From Escherichia phage UPEC01, in the sequence record MW233709: a stretch of 64,000 nt of DNA; one strand, 5' to 3'. The position numbers were made by a program, and so were the translations under genes. Under the pieces are notes generated by a model, which did no database searches, was not told the origin of the DNA, and saw only the letters and a program-made list of their open reading frames with translations. Positions 3,484-45,711 of the stretch are shown piece by piece (positions within the stretch are counted from its first letter, which is position 1; each line of letters starts with the position of its first letter).

Positions 3484-3798
3484 ATGAAAACTTATCAAGA
3501 ATTTATTACTGAATCTACTCAACAACGTGTTGAAGGTGGTTATGTCTGGATTGAACAGTTAACCCCACCAAGTGAAACAAGCACTGGTTCGTGGAAAATT
3601 ACTGTTGATGGTCCTGGTGGAAAACGCAAGACTATTAAAGAAATTAAAGGTTATTATGACGAAGCTAAATCATGGGCTGGTAGTCATGTAATGCAGATTA
3701 AAATTGCAAACCCAGATAACGTTCATGCGGCAAAAGCGTTCCGTCGCATTGGTAATAAACTTTATGATGCGTTTTTGCGCGATTTCCCTAAAGCTTAA
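3484..3798 (+). CDS. internal head protein (IPII/IPIII-like) with capsid-targeting leader
   Basis: N-terminus MKTYQEFITE matches T4 internal-protein targeting sequence; ORF-track upstream extension rejected. Confidence 0.8.
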   Translation: MKTYQEFITESTQQRVEGGYVWIEQLTPPSETSTGSWKITVDGPGGKRKTIKEIKGYYDEAKSWAGSHVMQIKIANPDNVHAAKAFRRIGNKLYDAFLRDFPKA

Positions 3799-3811: not shown

Positions 3812-4075
3812 ATGAAAACTTATCAAGAATTTATTACTGAATCCGCTAAAGCTCCTGCTGGTTCCTTTAAAGTCCGCGCCTTCGCTGGTGATGCTGAAGA
3901 CTTTGGTACCATGAAGCGCAATGGTTATTCTTTCTTTGGCGGCGATGGCAAAGAAATTGTTACCTATGCAAAACGCCGCGAAATCGCATTTGTGGTTGCT
4001 GGTAAGAAAGTTGATGTTGACGATATTGAATGGGACTTTGAGACCTTTGGTATTGTTTCTGGCGGTAAAGCGTAA
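3812..4075 (+). CDS. internal head protein (IPII/IPIII-like) with capsid-targeting leader
   Basis: N-terminus MKTYQEFITE; tandem to previous internal-protein gene. Confidence 0.8.
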   Translation: MKTYQEFITESAKAPAGSFKVRAFAGDAEDFGTMKRNGYSFFGGDGKEIVTYAKRREIAFVVAGKKVDVDDIEWDFETFGIVSGGKA

Positions 4076-42982: not shown

Positions 42983-43276
42983 ATGAAAAAGTTATTAATC
43001 GCAGCAATTCTTACCGTAGCATCATGTGGTACAGCCCCAGTTACTGCTGGGCTTGATAAAGACCTTTGTGAGTGGTCCATGACTGCGGACCAGACTGATG
43101 TTGAACACCAGATTTATGCTGACATCATGAACATTACTAAACGTGACCACCCAGATATGGTTAAAGAAGTATCTGACCAACTGGCTTCTGGTGACGTTAT
43201 GCAGTATAACTATGTTCTGTATTGCGATGCTTCATTTGACAACAGCAAGATTGTTCAATGGGTTACAGGTGAATAA
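42983..43276 (+). CDS. hypothetical lipoprotein
   Basis: Lipobox VASCG. Confidence 0.55.
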   Translation: MKKLLIAAILTVASCGTAPVTAGLDKDLCEWSMTADQTDVEHQIYADIMNITKRDHPDMVKEVSDQLASGDVMQYNYVLYCDASFDNSKIVQWVTGE

Positions 43277-43277
43277 A

Positions 43278-43718
43278 ATGATTAACAGAAATTTAGTTAT
43301 CAAAAAACTTCGTTGTAAAAATCAAAATGCACAAGCATACAGGATGTTTTGGAGCGACGAACCCATTCAATACCTGGGTTATTTTCTTGTTGATAGTGAT
43401 AATAGAATTACGTTTGCTCATAAACTTCTTAACAAAGAATTAAACCATTGGCAAGAACTTATTGCGGTCAAGTCTAAATTATTTTCGCGCAATACAATGC
43501 ACCAATTGGTTTATTTTTTCGCTGACGGTATTCCTGACAAGGTTGAGTTTGATGGGTTTGAATTTAAAGACATCACCCCTGATAATGAATTGAATGACAG
43601 TATTGTTAATATGGGTATCCCGGGTAAGTACATCAAAAACAGTCTTTTGAAACTTCTGGAAACCCCTGTATATTCAGTTGACGACCAGATTTTTAATGCC
43701 TTCATGAAGCGAGATTAG
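43278..43718 (+). CDS. hypothetical protein
   Basis: ATG 43278 after upstream stop; C-terminus SVDDQIFNAFMKRD. Confidence 0.5.
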   Translation: MINRNLVIKKLRCKNQNAQAYRMFWSDEPIQYLGYFLVDSDNRITFAHKLLNKELNHWQELIAVKSKLFSRNTMHQLVYFFADGIPDKVEFDGFEFKDITPDNELNDSIVNMGIPGKYIKNSLLKLLETPVYSVDDQIFNAFMKRD

Positions 43719-43722
43719 TATG
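43677..43722. repeat. direct repeat copy A (about 37-46 bp) at 3' end of CDS 43278-43718
   Basis: GTTGACGACCAGATTTTTAATGCCTTCATGAAGCGAG identical to 44033-44069. Confidence 0.8.
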
Positions 43723-44073
43723 AGTTATTATAATTTTCTGAATTTTGAACTGGCGAGCAATAATGATGGTAATGCTCATTATGAATTTCGTGAGCCACGG
43801 TTTAATCAAGCGATTGGTTATATTATCGTCAAAGATGATGTTATCATAAAGGCTCGCTCATTTATGGTAATGAATGGACCTTATGAAGATACTCGCGGCT
43901 ATCCATTTGATAAAAAGAATGTGCGCGATTGTGCAGCATGGATAACCGGAAACCCCGAAATTGGGGTCATGATATCTACTGAAGCGAATGACATTCTGGA
44001 AGGGGCTTGGGTCAAAGCTCAAGAACAGTCTGTTGACGACCAGATTTTTAATGCCTTCATGAAGCGAGGTTAA
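43720..44073 (+). CDS. hypothetical protein flanked by direct repeats
   Basis: C-terminus SVDDQIFNAFMKRG duplicates that of upstream gene. Confidence 0.5.
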   Translation: MSYYNFLNFELASNNDGNAHYEFREPRFNQAIGYIIVKDDVIIKARSFMVMNGPYEDTRGYPFDKKNVRDCAAWITGNPEIGVMISTEANDILEGAWVKAQEQSVDDQIFNAFMKRG

Positions 44074-44296: not shown

Positions 44297-44462
44297 GATT
44301 TCCGTCTTCCAGATTTTTGAAGAATATGAAATCGTGTCGCAAGACCAAGAAGCAATCCATGCTATCGCTGATGATGGGGTTACCTGGATTATTCCGTTGT
44401 ATCATGAAGACACTTATGAAGTGACTGATGCAAATGGTGATAAAGCTATCTTCGTTGTATAA
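44271..44462 (+). CDS. hypothetical protein
   Basis: Intact ORF. Confidence 0.45.
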   Translation: MSAMCTGSKISVFQIFEEYEIVSQDQEAIHAIADDGVTWIIPLYHEDTYEVTDANGDKAIFVV

Positions 44463-44482
44463 ATAGCGGAAAGGGGGGTGTT

Positions 44483-44650
44483 ATGAAAACATTCAAAGAT
44501 TTTATCAACGAAGATATGGTTGCTGGTGATGCAGGTGGAAACCCAACTAATATCGCAACAGGTACCACTTCCGGGGCAGTTGTCAATAAAGGCCCTGAAC
44601 AAATCCCATCAAAAAAGCGTAAGAACAAAGACGATAAACCTACAGTATAA
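44483..44650 (+). CDS. small protein with internal-protein-like capsid-targeting leader (55 aa; not in ORF track)
   Basis: N-terminus MKTFKDFINE parallels MKTYQEFITE of the IP genes at 3484/3812; SD AAGGGGGG. Confidence 0.45.
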   Translation: MKTFKDFINEDMVAGDAGGNPTNIATGTTSGAVVNKGPEQIPSKKRKNKDDKPTV

Positions 44651-44669
44651 TGGTCCTCCGGGACCATTG
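44651..44669 (+). other. hairpin TGGTCC-TCCG-GGACCA upstream of gene 61
   Basis: 6-bp stem, no U-tract. Confidence 0.4.
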
Positions 44670-44682
44670 AAATGAGGAAACT

Positions 44683-45711
44683 ATGTCATATATTGATAGA
44701 GAATTTGCAGTCAGAGCTTTATCGTATCAACCACGTTATAGAGAAGTCACCGGGAGCACATTTAAAGCAAACTGTCGTTGCAAGGTTTGTGGGGACTCCC
44801 AGAAAGATTCACACAAGGCTCGATTCTGGGCGTATACTAATCCGGCCGATGGCGCGGTTTACGTGAAATGTTTTAACTGTGACTACTCCACGCATATAAG
44901 CAAATACATAAAAGAGTTTGAGCCGGATTTACACCGGGAATATATGGTTGAGAAGTATAAGGAGAATGCCTTTGGGCGACAACGCAATGAAGTCATTGAA
45001 ACTCCGAAAGAACCAGAAAAAACTCCGGTTATCGAACAGCTTGCTTTTTGTGAAAGACTCGATACTTTACCAGAAGCACATCCGATAATTAAGTATGTAA
45101 AAAGTCGATGTATTCCAAGCAATGTTTGGAATCGACTATGGTTTACAAACCAATGGCCCACATTAGTTAACTCCGTTAATCCTGGGACGTATAAGAATGA
45201 AACGAATGAACCACGCTTGGTTATTCCTATCTTCAACGGCAAAAAAGAAATCGAATCTTTCCAAGGACGAGCTCTTCGCAAAGATGCACCACAAAAATAT
45301 ATCACAATCAAAGCTCACCCAGAAGCTTCCAAAGTCTATGGCGTAGACAAGATTGATGAGCGTAAACGCGTATGGGTAATGGAAGGTCCGATTGATAGTT
45401 TGTTTATCCCTAACAGCATTGCGATAACTGGTGGAACATTGTCATTGGAAGCCGTTCCTTATCCAGAAACCAGAGTATGGGTAATGGACAACGAACCAAG
45501 ACATCCGGATACGATTAAACGTATGAAGAAGCTCGTTGAAGCTGGCGAAGCTGTTATGTTCTGGGACAATGCACCATGGCATACGAAAGACATAAATGAG
45601 ATGGTTAAATCAGAAGGAGCAACCCCTGAACAAATCGAATCATATATGGCTGATAACGTTGCCCAAGGATTGATGGCGAGAATGCGACTTTCGAAGTACG
45701 CAAAAGTTTAG
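44683..45711 (+). CDS. 61: DNA primase gp61
   Basis: Zinc ribbon CRCKVCGDS..CFNCDY; long matches to recalled T4 gp61. Confidence 0.95.
   Translation: MSYIDREFAVRALSYQPRYREVTGSTFKANCRCKVCGDSQKDSHKARFWAYTNPADGAVYVKCFNCDYSTHISKYIKEFEPDLHREYMVEKYKENAFGRQRNEVIETPKEPEKTPVIEQLAFCERLDTLPEAHPIIKYVKSRCIPSNVWNRLWFTNQWPTLVNSVNPGTYKNETNEPRLVIPIFNGKKEIESFQGRALRKDAPQKYITIKAHPEASKVYGVDKIDERKRVWVMEGPIDSLFIPNSIAITGGTLSLEAVPYPETRVWVMDNEPRHPDTIKRMKKLVEAGEAVMFWDNAPWHTKDINEMVKSEGATPEQIESYMADNVAQGLMARMRLSKYAKV

What the first reader, a model, noticed from the sequence alone, without database searches (positions are those of the whole stretch)
44483..44650. Unannotated 55-aa protein with internal-protein-type capsid-targeting leader
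This ORF (under the 60-aa threshold of the ORF track) begins MKTFKDFINE, paralleling the MKTYQEFITE leader of the two internal-protein genes at 3484 and 3812, including the I-x-E site expected for prohead-protease cleavage. In T4, proteins carrying this leader are packaged and injected with the DNA, and IPI acts against a host restriction system. This is therefore a candidate injected effector of unknown target.
Basis: partly seen in the sequence, partly recalled or inferred. Interest (0 to 1): 0.55.

Follow-up and report, generated by a model that had tools for sequence, protein, structure and literature searches.

The report
Head-targeted peptide mimicking capsid protein
This 55-codon gene matches phage T4's uncharacterised gene 61.1: a small, widely conserved protein that joins the short tag T4 uses to load proteins into its head to a copy of the start of the mature major capsid protein, so it is probably a protease-trimmed head peptide, not a new injected weapon.

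Summary
The ORF at 44483-44650 is real. It has a strong ribosome-binding site and is under purifying selection. It is the ortholog of T4 gene 61.1, annotated "hypothetical" in T4 and VR7, and sits directly upstream of primase gene 61.

MKTFKDFINE keeps all four positions that experiments found critical in the IPIII capsid-targeting sequence (4, 7, 8, 10). In T4, 61.1 and ipI share their first 22 nucleotides.

Residues 2-44 are homologous to major capsid protein gp23 residues 57-99 (hhalign 96.7-98%). This span covers the prohead-protease cut site (Glu10 aligns with Glu65) and the 25-residue "N-fist" of mature gp23*. A Lys/Arg cluster follows.

The family has short forms (~55 aa) and long forms (~160 aa). 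Of 117 members, 94 keep L/I-x-E at that junction.

A long-form ortholog was detected in purified Yersinia phage phiR1-RT particles (9 peptides, 62% coverage). T4 61.1 is non-essential, like ipI-III.

Best reading: a head-core passenger cleaved after Glu10, working by mimicry of the capsid protein's maturation junction. Its high conservation argues against an IPI-like arms-race effector. Packaging, cleavage and function of the short form remain untested.

The parts
44483..44650 (+). gene 61.1 ortholog, 55 codons plus stop (MKTFKDFINEDMVAGDAGGNPTNIATGTTSGAVVNKGPEQIPSKKRKNKDDKPTV)
   Evidence: ORF list. 100% identical to VR7 gp61.1 and 86% identical to T4 gp61.1 over residues 1-42. phrog_1823 E 1e-32. 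All 3 nt differences from VR7 are synonymous; against T4, 18 synonymous versus 6 non-synonymous codon differences in 42 codons.
44470..44478 (+). Shine-Dalgarno-like AAAGGGGGG, ending 4 nt before the ATG
   Evidence: Read directly from the sequence; conserved in VR7.
44483..44512 (+). 10-residue IP-type capsid-targeting leader MKTFKDFINE, ending in the predicted prohead-protease site I-N-E (cut after Glu10)
   Evidence: Pattern found only in this ORF and the two IP ORFs of the window. F4, F7, I8 and E10 are the IPIII CTS positions needed for targeting (4, 7) and processing (8, 10) (PMC9026906). gp21 cuts after L/I-x-E. Glu10 aligns with the gp23 cleavage Glu65.
44513..44596 (+). Residues 11-38 (DMVAGDAGGNPTNIATGTTSGAVVNKGP): copy of the N-terminus (N-fist region) of mature major capsid protein gp23*
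   Evidence: phmmer versus PDB: gp23 residues 58-96, E 8.9e-5. hhalign versus gp23 N-termini: 96.7% (E 4e-10) and 98% (E 2e-13). Conserved Gly, Pro, Ile and Asp positions coincide with those of gp23.
44597..44647 (+). Residues 39-55: tail with a Lys/Arg cluster (SKKRKNK)
   Evidence: K+R make up 42% of the 16 residues after the core across 113 family members. Predicted mature peptide is 45 aa, 4.6 kDa, pI 9.3.
44649..44668 (+). 8-bp GC-rich hairpin (AATGGTCC-TCCG-GGACCATT) overlapping the stop codon, between 61.1 and gene 61; no T-run follows
   Evidence: RNA fold -18.4 kcal/mol, z -3.4. Present in VR7 with one A-to-G change in the 3' arm (U-A to U-G, pairing kept). Absent in T4, where the 61.1 stop and the gene 61 ATG are 2 nt apart.
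44458..44465 (+). TATAAATA (T4 late-promoter consensus) 17 nt upstream of the ATG, overlapping the upstream ORF's stop codon; of uncertain significance
   Evidence: 5 matches in the window against 5.1 expected. Conserved in VR7. T4 has TATGAATA.
44683..45711 (+). Gene 61 (DNA primase), the conserved downstream neighbour
   Evidence: The same adjacency is seen in Acinetobacter Octan, a metagenomic T4-like contig and KVP40-like phi-pp2.
3484..3798 (+). Internal-protein-like gene 1 with leader MKTYQEFITE (comparison point)
   Evidence: phrog_3966 E 2e-32, with weak leader-only hits to internal head/virion protein PHROGs.
3812..4075 (+). Internal-protein-like gene 2 with leader MKTYQEFITE (comparison point)
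   Evidence: phrog_2667 'internal head protein' E 9e-21. The leader is 30/30 nt identical to that of the 3484 gene.

Best explanation
The ORF encodes gp61.1, a small accessory protein of the phage head.

Inferred mechanism:
1. [quoted passage not shown]
2. The prohead protease gp21 cuts after Glu10 (I-N-E|D). This is the same junction at which it cuts the major capsid protein gp23 (L-T-E|A).
3. A roughly 45-residue peptide is released. Its first ~28 residues copy the N-terminus (N-fist region) of mature gp23*. A Lys/Arg cluster follows.

The protein therefore works by mimicking the capsid protein's maturation junction. It should be recognised by whatever recognises that segment of gp23 in the prohead (scaffold core and protease). 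The mature peptide would then stay associated with the capsid lattice, acidic core remnants or DNA.

Shown here: the gene is real and conserved; the homology to gp23 57-99; the CTS-type leader; conservation of the cleavage motif; virion association of a long-form ortholog; dispensability in T4.

Inferred only: packaging and cleavage of the short form, and what the mature peptide does.
For: - The gene is real. It is 100% identical to VR7 gp61.1, has T4 61.1 synteny and is under purifying selection.
- Leader. It is unique to this ORF and the two IP ORFs among 1,037 frames. It keeps F4, F7, I8 and E10, the positions experimentally required for IPIII targeting and processing (PMC9026906). T4 gp61.1 (MKTFKEFIKE) shares 7/10 residues with IPI, IPII and IPIII, and its first 22 nt with ipI.
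- Capsid mimicry. gp61.1 residues 3-41 align to gp23 58-96 at E 8.9e-5. Profile-profile comparisons give 96.7% and 98%. Glu10 sits on the gp23 cleavage Glu65.
- Cleavage motif. Across 117 family members of two architectures, 116 have Glu within 4 residues upstream of the core, 111 have a hydrophobic residue at P3 of such a Glu, and 94 have L or I there. That is the gp21 motif L/I-x-E; its background rate is 2.1% per position.
- The gp23 segment being copied (aa 66-105) lies inside the unexpanded head and is thought to contact the scaffold core (PMC9546572).
- Virion evidence. LC-MS/MS of purified phiR1-RT particles found Gp036 'gp61.1' (160-aa long form) with 9 unique peptides and 61.9% coverage (PMC6893735 Tables S3/S4).
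- T4 61.1 tolerates insertions at 13/13 sites, like ipI (24/24), ipII (22/23) and ipIII (42/46) (HIDEN-SEQ preprint).
- Early transcription is no obstacle. ipII, ipIII and head-assembly gene 40 transcripts are also classed 'early' in T4 (PMC9697503 Table S2).
- AlphaFold finds no independent fold: pLDDT 60, with only a leader helix at residues 4-11 and a short helix at 21-25. This fits a peptide that is ordered only when bound.
Against: - No direct evidence exists for the short form. T4 gp61.1 protein was not detected in a time-resolved whole-cell proteome.
- It is not among the core components listed for T4 heads (PMC9546572).
- No density in the T4 capsid maps has been assigned to it.
- P1' is Asp here, while known gp21 sites shown in this work have Ala or Ser (gp23 E|A, IPII/III E|A, gp24 E|S).
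- A 4.6-kDa unfolded peptide could leave the prohead through the 14-17 A capsomer openings, as scaffold fragments are thought to do.
- The phiR1-RT particle list also contains obvious carry-over enzymes. It concerns the long form, whose 62% coverage must include the N-domain that the window protein lacks.
- The late-promoter motif upstream is not conserved in T4.
Confidence: 0.45

Rival explanations
1. Cytoplasmic decoy or competitor. gp61.1 is made early and stays in the cytoplasm. There it mimics the nascent N-terminal segment of gp23 to occupy a factor that recognises that segment. Candidates are the GroEL/gp31 folding route, the gp21 zymogen, or a host immune sensor of capsid protein.
For: - The T4 61.1 transcript is classed 'early'.
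- The gene sits in an early replication-gene cluster.
- The mimicry of gp23 57-99 is strong.
- Capsid proteins are known triggers of several defence systems, including Lit, which is activated by a gp23 peptide (discussion in PMC11312562).
- From memory, not checked here: Snyder and Tarkowski (2005) reported that the gp23 N-terminus directs proteins to GroEL.
Against: - It does not explain why short forms carry a near-perfect IP capsid-targeting leader.
- It does not explain why the protease motif is conserved at the junction.
- It does not explain why the long form is abundant in purified particles.
- From memory: the Gol peptide that activates Lit lies around gp23 residues 93-122, just downstream of the copied segment.
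- The one HIDEN-SEQ comparison read showed no host-dependent fitness effect.
Confidence: 0.2
2. One reading: an IPI-like effector that is packaged, injected with the DNA and acts on a host restriction or defence system.
For: - IP-type leader and I-x-E site.
- Small and non-essential, like the internal proteins.
- A basic cluster, as in the basic internal proteins.
- A family member is present in particles.
Against: - Arms-race effectors vary fast. The IP at 3812 matches only 208 records, mostly Escherichia/Shigella phages. gp61.1 keeps the same ~28-residue core from coliphages to Acinetobacter, Klebsiella and Vibrio phages, at a fixed locus.
- The core copies a structural segment of the phage's own capsid protein rather than forming a folded inhibitor.
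- No conditional phenotype appeared in the comparison inspected.
Confidence: 0.12
3. Trans-acting N-fist. After release, the peptide docks on the expanded gp23*/gp24* lattice in the manner of the gp23* N-fist. It might act at positions that lack one, or in competition with it, and so tune capsid stability, expansion or Soc binding.
For: - Every conserved Gly, Pro, Ile and Asp of the gp23 N-fist segment is conserved in gp61.1. This is far more than the short L/I-x-E determinant of gp21 needs.
- The N-fist contacts four subunits and helps form the Soc site (PMC9958956).
- Unassigned helical density under gp24* is reported in the expanded head (PMC9546572).
Against: - Published near-atomic maps did not report extra N-fist-like density.
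- gp24* uses its own N-terminus for the equivalent contacts.
- The gene is dispensable in T4.
- Cognate gp61.1/gp23 pairs are no more similar than non-cognate pairs in a 5x5 comparison.
Confidence: 0.1
4. No protein function: the ORF is a leader ORF or translational-coupling device for primase gene 61, or a decaying capsid-gene fragment.
For: - Constant position directly upstream of gene 61.
- In T4 the 61.1 stop codon is 2 nt from the gene 61 ATG.
Against: - Strong purifying selection on the amino-acid sequence.
- Family-wide conservation of the peptide in two architectures.
- Protein detected by MS in phiR1-RT.
- In this window a 32-nt spacer with a hairpin and a separate ribosome-binding site uncouples the two genes.
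Confidence: 0.03

Closest known systems
T4 gene 61.1 product (NP_049649; PHROG phrog_1823), a 'conserved hypothetical' protein
   Same: Ortholog. It has the same position between the 61.2-like genes and primase gene 61. Residues 1-42 are 86% identical. The leader, core and Lys cluster are the same.
   Different: The C-terminal tail differs: T4 has KKKKEESKEKEE (mature pI 5.0) and the window has SKKRKNKDDKPTV (mature pI 9.3). The window has an intergenic hairpin and a TATAAATA motif that T4 lacks.
[quoted passage not shown]
   Same: A 10-residue leader with an aromatic residue at 4, Phe at 7, Ile at 8 and Glu at 10. The T4 61.1 and ipI leaders share 22 nt. All are small and non-essential.
   Different: The mature part is not a variable folded effector. 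It is a conserved copy of the gp23 N-terminus with no predicted independent fold. It lies at a fixed locus next to primase, not in the IP loci. It is far more widely distributed.
Major capsid protein gp23: propeptide junction plus N-fist of gp23* (PDB 6UZC, 7VS5, 5VF3)
   Same: About 45% identity over ~40 residues. The cleavage Glu aligns, and the GD, G, IA, G, G and GP positions are shared.
   Different: It has none of the HK97-fold body, gives no Pfam hit and is only 55 aa. In place of the continuing N-arm it has a poly-Lys/Arg tail.
Long-form gp61.1 (phrog_2086): KP27_034, Acinetobacter Octan_054/Acj9 61.1, phiR1-RT Gp036, KVP40-type 159-aa protein
   Same: The same C-terminal module ([L/I]-x-E | MVAGD...GP + KKKK) and the same position upstream of primase.
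   Different: Long forms carry a ~105-residue helical N-domain (AlphaFold pLDDT 85-95, no PDB fold match) in place of the 10-residue CTS. That domain is not encoded anywhere in this window. Only the long form has direct virion MS evidence.
Small prohead core proteins gp67 and gp68, and the internal peptides derived from core proteins
   Same: Small, core-associated and cut by gp21 into peptides.
   Different: gp67 and gp68 are essential (0 insertions) and gp67 is strongly acidic. gp61.1 is dispensable and carries a basic cluster. There is no sequence similarity.

Membership tests
gp61.1 family (PHROG phrog_1823; T4 gene 61.1 orthologs) | Full-length sequence match to the family profile | tested here: met
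   phrog_1823 E 1e-32 over residues 1-52. 100% identical to VR7 gp61.1 and 86% to T4 over residues 1-42.
gp61.1 family (PHROG phrog_1823; T4 gene 61.1 orthologs) | Position immediately upstream of DNA primase gene 61, same strand | tested here: met
   61.1 at 44483-44650 and primase at 44683-45711. Same arrangement in T4, VR7, Octan, a metagenomic contig and phi-pp2.
T4-type CTS-bearing internal (packaged, injected) proteins | N-terminal ~10-residue capsid-targeting sequence with the residues needed for targeting (positions 4 and 7) | tested here: met
   F4 and F7, against Y4 and F7 in IPII/III and F4 and F7 in IPI. The pattern is unique to the IP ORFs and this ORF in the window.
T4-type CTS-bearing internal (packaged, injected) proteins | gp21 processing determinants: L/I at position 8 and Glu at position 10 (L/I-x-E motif) | tested here: met
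   I8-N9-E10. The motif is conserved in 94/117 family members. P1' Asp is atypical.
T4-type CTS-bearing internal (packaged, injected) proteins | Physical presence in proheads and virions | not testable with these tools
   Indirect only. The long-form ortholog phiR1-RT Gp036 was detected in purified particles (9 peptides, 62% coverage). T4 gp61.1 was not detected in a whole-cell proteome.
T4-type CTS-bearing internal (packaged, injected) proteins | Cleavage by prohead protease gp21 in vivo | not testable with these tools
   Motif evidence only.
T4-type CTS-bearing internal (packaged, injected) proteins | Ejection into the host with the DNA, and action on a host target | not testable with these tools
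   No data. The one HIDEN-SEQ conditional comparison inspected was not significant.
T4-type CTS-bearing internal (packaged, injected) proteins | Hypervariable mature domain at the polymorphic IP loci (a typical, not strictly defining, feature) | tested here: not met
   The mature part is highly conserved across genera and the locus is fixed next to primase. Compare the narrow distribution of the window's own IP.
Major capsid protein gp23/gp24 (HK97 fold; Pfam Gp23) | HK97-fold body (A and P domains, E-loop) | tested here: not met
   55 aa only. No Pfam or NCBIfam hit. Similarity is confined to gp23 residues 57-99. Database names such as 'major capsid (domain-containing) protein' for this family are over-annotations.
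Major capsid protein gp23/gp24 (HK97 fold; Pfam Gp23) | Maturation junction (L/I-x-E|) followed by the N-fist segment | tested here: met
   hhalign 96.7-98%, with the cleavage Glu aligned.

The most novel reading that the evidence does not exclude
gp61.1 may be a free-standing, trans-acting copy of the capsid protein's N-fist. It would be loaded into the prohead by a CTS, released by the maturation protease, and then dock on the capsid lattice or scaffold in place of, or alongside, gp23's own N-terminus to tune assembly, expansion or stability.

A corollary is evolutionary. The IP capsid-targeting sequence itself would derive from the gp23 maturation junction (gp23 AFGSFLTE | ~ gp61.1 TFKDFINE | ~ IP TYQEFITE |), with gp61.1 as the surviving intermediate. 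This would give a molecular explanation for how the CTS is recognised, which reviews still describe as unexplained (PMC9958956).
Probability: 0.12. Interest if true: 0.7.

Novelty: new variant of a known kind. Interest (0 to 1): 0.5.

Why it matters
How proteins are selected for the T4 scaffolding core is still described as unexplained (PMC9958956). The capsid-targeting sequence is also used as an engineering tool to load cargo into T4 heads.

gp61.1 is a conserved natural protein in which a CTS-type leader sits directly on a copy of the capsid protein's own maturation junction. This suggests that the CTS, the gp23 propeptide junction and gp61.1 are read by the same partner. It also offers a small, dispensable and easily mutated probe for that recognition step.

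The work adds a candidate head component to one of the best-studied viruses. It shows that database names such as 'major capsid protein' for this family are over-annotations.

If the peptide only rides along and has no role, the finding is a modest annotation improvement for a conserved hypothetical gene.

Tried and rejected
- **Pfam and NCBIfam scans** of the short and long forms gave no family.
- **Long-form N-domain fold.** The AlphaFold model was confident, but Foldseek against the PDB gave no hit with E <= 0.001. The N-domain's function remains unknown.
- **Long-form N-domain versus the gp23 propeptide.** hhalign aligns only the C-terminal module, so the N-domain is not a second copy of the gp23 delta-piece.
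- **Split-gene idea** (N-domain encoded separately near the short form). An HMM of the N-domain finds nothing in the six-frame translation of the window (best E 0.11).
- **Cognate co-variation or gene conversion between gp61.1 and gp23.** In a 5x5 identity matrix (T4, VR7, KP27, Octan, MIZ4), cognate pairs are not more alike than non-cognate pairs (14-20/33). The sample is small.
- **Late promoter.** TATAAATA lies 17 nt upstream of the ATG here and in VR7, but the window holds 5 matches against 5.1 expected, and T4 has TATGAATA. I did not use it as evidence.
- **Sigma-70 promoter and terminator scan** around the gene was uninformative.
- **Literature.** 'gp61.1' occurs in only two full texts, both genome descriptions. 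A 2006 comparative paper lists 61.1 as a conserved ORF without function. The KP15/KP27 paper holds no virion proteome. Several '61.1' hits were only journal volume numbers.
- **Antisense ORFs** overlapping the gene (44446-44667 and 44414-44602, minus strand) were rejected as spurious. Conservation and synonymous-site variation follow the + frame.

Full report
**What is at the coordinates**

An ATG-initiated ORF of 55 codons runs from 44483 to 44650 on the + strand. A purine-rich ribosome-binding site (AAAGGGGGG, 44470-44478) ends 4 nt before the ATG.

Its product begins MKTFKDFINE. Two ORFs starting at 3484 and 3812, next to the lysozyme and denV genes, begin MKTYQEFITE. The 3812 product matches the PHROG 'internal head protein' family at E 9e-21.

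I tested all 1,037 ATG-initiated frames of at least 30 aa on both strands. Only these three match MK[TS][YF]x[ED]F[ILVM]xE, or even a loose hydrophobic/acidic version of it. Composition predicts 9e-5 and 0.25 matches respectively.

**It is a known but uncharacterised gene**

The window is a T4-like phage of the VR7/SP18/DK-13 group (Gaprivervirus), 94-98% identical across this region.

The ORF is 100% identical to VR7 gp61.1. It is the positional and sequence ortholog of T4 gene 61.1 (54 aa, 'hypothetical protein'), which lies between 61.2 and primase gene 61. It matches PHROG phrog_1823 at E 1e-32.

It is under purifying selection:
- All 3 nucleotide differences from VR7 are synonymous.
- Against T4, 18 of 24 differing codons in the first 42 are synonymous.

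Only two full texts in the library mention 'gp61.1', both genome descriptions. A 2006 comparative study lists 61.1 among conserved ORFs with no function (PMC1524935).

- A search of solved structures hits T4 major capsid protein gp23, with residues 3-41 of the ORF on gp23 residues 58-96 (E 8.9e-5).
- Profile-profile comparison with gp23 N-termini from five genera gives 96.7% probability (E 4e-10) for the short family. It gives 98% (E 2e-13) for the long family described below.
- gp23 is cut by the prohead protease gp21 after Glu65 (L-T-E|A-E-I-G-G-D...). That Glu aligns with Glu10 of the ORF (I-N-E|D-M-V-A-G-D...).
- The residues that follow, gp23* 66-90, form the 25-residue 'N-fist' (PMC9958956).
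- In the unexpanded head, gp23* residues 66-105 are disordered and inside the shell, probably in contact with the scaffold core. On expansion they move outside, bind four neighbouring subunits and help form the Soc site (PMC9546572).
- The conserved positions coincide in the two families: GD, G, I-A, G, G, G-P.
- Some database records name members of this family 'major capsid protein' or 'major capsid domain-containing protein'. This is an over-annotation, because nothing of the HK97 body is present and Pfam gives no hit.

**Family anatomy**

A profile search of 1.84 billion representatives found 48 clusters, none longer than 251 aa. There are two main architectures.

- **Short forms (50-70 aa).** They have a leader such as MK[TS][FY][KN][ED]F[ILV]xE. 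The window's protein is one of these.
- **Long forms (about 130-165 aa).** A conserved ~105-residue helical N-domain precedes the same C-terminal module. Examples are Klebsiella KP27_034, Acinetobacter Octan_054/Acj9 61.1, Yersinia TG1/phiR1-RT and the KVP40-type 159-aa protein.

Both architectures are found upstream of primase: directly in T4, VR7, Octan, a metagenomic contig and phi-pp2, and with one or two small ORFs between in KP27 and MIZ4.

The long-form N-domain models confidently (pLDDT 85-95), while the gp23-like tail is disordered. The N-domain has no PDB fold match. It is not encoded anywhere in this window.

A few members carry a further C-terminal extension. It starts, right after the Lys cluster, with a second leader-like stretch (MNEV..F.QF...).

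**The junction is conserved as a protease site**

gp21 cuts after L/I-x-E (PMC9026906). Counts for the 117 family members with the core:

| Feature | Members |
|---|---|
| Glu within four residues upstream of the xGD core | 116 |
| Hydrophobic residue (LIVMF) at P3 of such a Glu | 111 |
| L or I at P3 of such a Glu | 94 |

The background rate of [LI]xE in the upstream parts of the same proteins is 2.1% per position. The 16 residues after the core are 42% Lys+Arg.

**The leader meets the experimental definition of a capsid-targeting sequence**

For IPIII, the first 10 residues suffice for packaging. Positions 4 and 7 govern targeting, and positions 8 and 10 govern processing (Mullaney and Black 1996, as reviewed in PMC9026906). 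The ORF has F4, F7, I8 and E10.

In T4 itself:
- gp61.1 begins MKTFKEFIKE, IPI begins MKTFKEFTST, and IPII/III begin MKTYQEFIAE.
- 61.1 and ipI share their first 22 nucleotides exactly.

In this window the 61.1 leader is 22/30 nt identical to the two IP leaders, which are 30/30 identical to each other.

The last nine residues of the gp23 propeptide (AFGSFLTE) show the same aromatic-x-x-F-[LI]-x-E spacing. The three kinds of junction therefore look like variants of one signal.

**Experimental data in the literature**

- LC-MS/MS of purified particles of the T4-like Yersinia phage phiR1-RT detected 'Gp036 gp61.1 conserved hypothetical protein' (160 aa). The values were score 44.1, 61.9% coverage and 9 unique peptides. 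It heads the list of hypothetical proteins re-annotated as structural (PMC6893735 Tables S3 and S4). The authors note that some enzymes in that list are probably carry-over.
- In the HIDEN-SEQ insertion map of T4, 61.1 is non-essential (13/13 sites hit), like ipI (24/24), ipII (22/23) and ipIII (42/46). By contrast gp67 and gp68 take no insertions. One conditional comparison gave log2FC +1.23, adjusted p 1.0 (preprint 10.1101/2025.11.20.689424).
- In a time-resolved T4 omics study the 61.1 transcript is 'early' and the protein was not detected. The ipII, ipIII and gene 40 transcripts are also classed 'early' (PMC9697503 Table S2).

**Most likely mechanism (confidence about 0.45)**

The leader takes gp61.1 into the scaffolding core. 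gp21 cuts after Glu10. A 45-residue peptide is released (4.6 kDa, pI 9.3 here), made of an N-fist-like segment and a basic cluster. It has no fold of its own (pLDDT 60).

It works by mimicry of the capsid protein's maturation junction. Its partners are probably those of that gp23 segment: the scaffold core and protease in the prohead, and possibly the lattice afterwards.

Shown here: the homology, the leader, motif conservation, virion association of a long-form relative, and dispensability. Inferred only: packaging and cleavage of the short form, and the role of the mature peptide.

Points against:
- The protein was not detected in T4 cells.
- It is absent from published lists of T4 core proteins and has no assigned density in maps.
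- P1' is Asp instead of Ala or Ser.
- A small peptide could escape through the capsomer openings.

**Rivals**

- A cytoplasmic decoy for a factor that reads the gp23 N-terminus (0.2).
This is weakened by the extreme conservation and by the self-capsid nature of the mature part, in contrast to the narrow distribution of the window's own IP (208 records against 1,518).
- A trans-acting N-fist that docks on the lattice (0.1).
- A mere leader ORF for primase (0.03). This is contradicted by the selection pattern and the MS detection.

**Comparison with the known, and novelty**

It works like a T4 internal protein in its address tag and cut site. It meets the sequence-level criteria for that class. 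The physical criteria (packaging, cleavage, ejection) could not be tested, and the typical hypervariability is not met.

It is not a capsid protein. It is a member of the gp61.1 family, which is annotated but uncharacterised.

I found no description of its CTS-type leader or its gp23-junction mimicry in the searchable literature. I therefore rate it a new variant of a known kind, with moderate interest (0.5). It offers a simple, dispensable probe for how the T4 core selects its passengers. It also suggests that the CTS descends from the capsid protein's own junction.

Noticed in passing
window 44649-44668: A stable 8-bp GC-rich hairpin with a TCCG loop overlaps the 61.1 stop codon, in the 32-nt spacer before primase gene 61 (-18.4 kcal/mol, z -3.4). 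No T-run follows, so it is not a classical terminator. VR7 keeps it with one A-to-G change in the 3' arm that preserves pairing as a G-U wobble. T4 has no spacer at all. It may be an mRNA-stability or processing element.
   Followed up: partly
window 44458-44465: An exact T4 late-promoter consensus, TATAAATA, lies 17 nt upstream of the 61.1 ATG and overlaps the stop codon of the upstream ORF. It is conserved in VR7 but not in T4 (TATGAATA). The window as a whole has as many matches as chance predicts.
   Followed up: partly
window 43143-43718 and 43720-44073: Two adjacent ORFs (191 and 117 aa) end in nearly the same C-terminal motif, SVDDQIFNAFMKRD and SVDDQIFNAFMKRG. The motif also ends T4 gp61.2 (IDDQIFNAFMNRG). 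This looks like a tandem duplication of a 61.2-like gene with a conserved C-terminal tag.
   Followed up: no
window 3484-3513 and 3812-3841; L001:2501-2522 and L013 (T4 ipI start): The two IP genes of the window have 30/30 identical leader nucleotides although their mature parts are unrelated. In T4, ipI and 61.1 share their first 22 nt exactly. The leader-coding stretch behaves like a shared cassette, possibly a recombination site.
   Followed up: partly
P0039, P0056, P0059, P0123, P0124; L012:4001-4720: Some gp61.1 family members (239-251 aa, from T4-like metagenomic contigs) continue past the Lys cluster. The extension starts with a second leader-like stretch (MNEV..F.QF..) and adds a ~90-residue domain. 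This looks like a polyprotein with two protease junctions, or a fusion with a downstream CTS-bearing gene.
   Followed up: partly
P0118 (Yersinia phage TG1 gp61.1 long form): The TG1-type protein has an insertion and substitution in the otherwise near-invariant core (MVAGNASAPGTSPEHNAENIASG instead of MVAGDxGGxxxNIASG). TG1's close relative phiR1-RT is the phage whose gp61.1 was detected in particles.
   Followed up: no
L007:7503-10067 (VR7, closest annotated relative): VR7 carries two tandem gp24 vertex-protein paralogs. Their 10-residue leaders are MAKINELLRE and MQKINALIHE, both ending in a hydrophobic-x-E site. The head-gene region itself lies outside this window.
   Followed up: no
window 42983-43276: A 97-aa ORF has a lipoprotein-type signal (MKKLLIAAILTVASCG...). 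Its position matches the spackle (sp) gene of T4 and VR7.
   Followed up: no
public records hit: Several GenBank and UniProt entries name gp61.1 orthologs 'major capsid protein', 'major head protein' or 'major capsid domain-containing protein'. The name rests only on the ~40-residue similarity to the gp23 N-terminus.
   Followed up: yes
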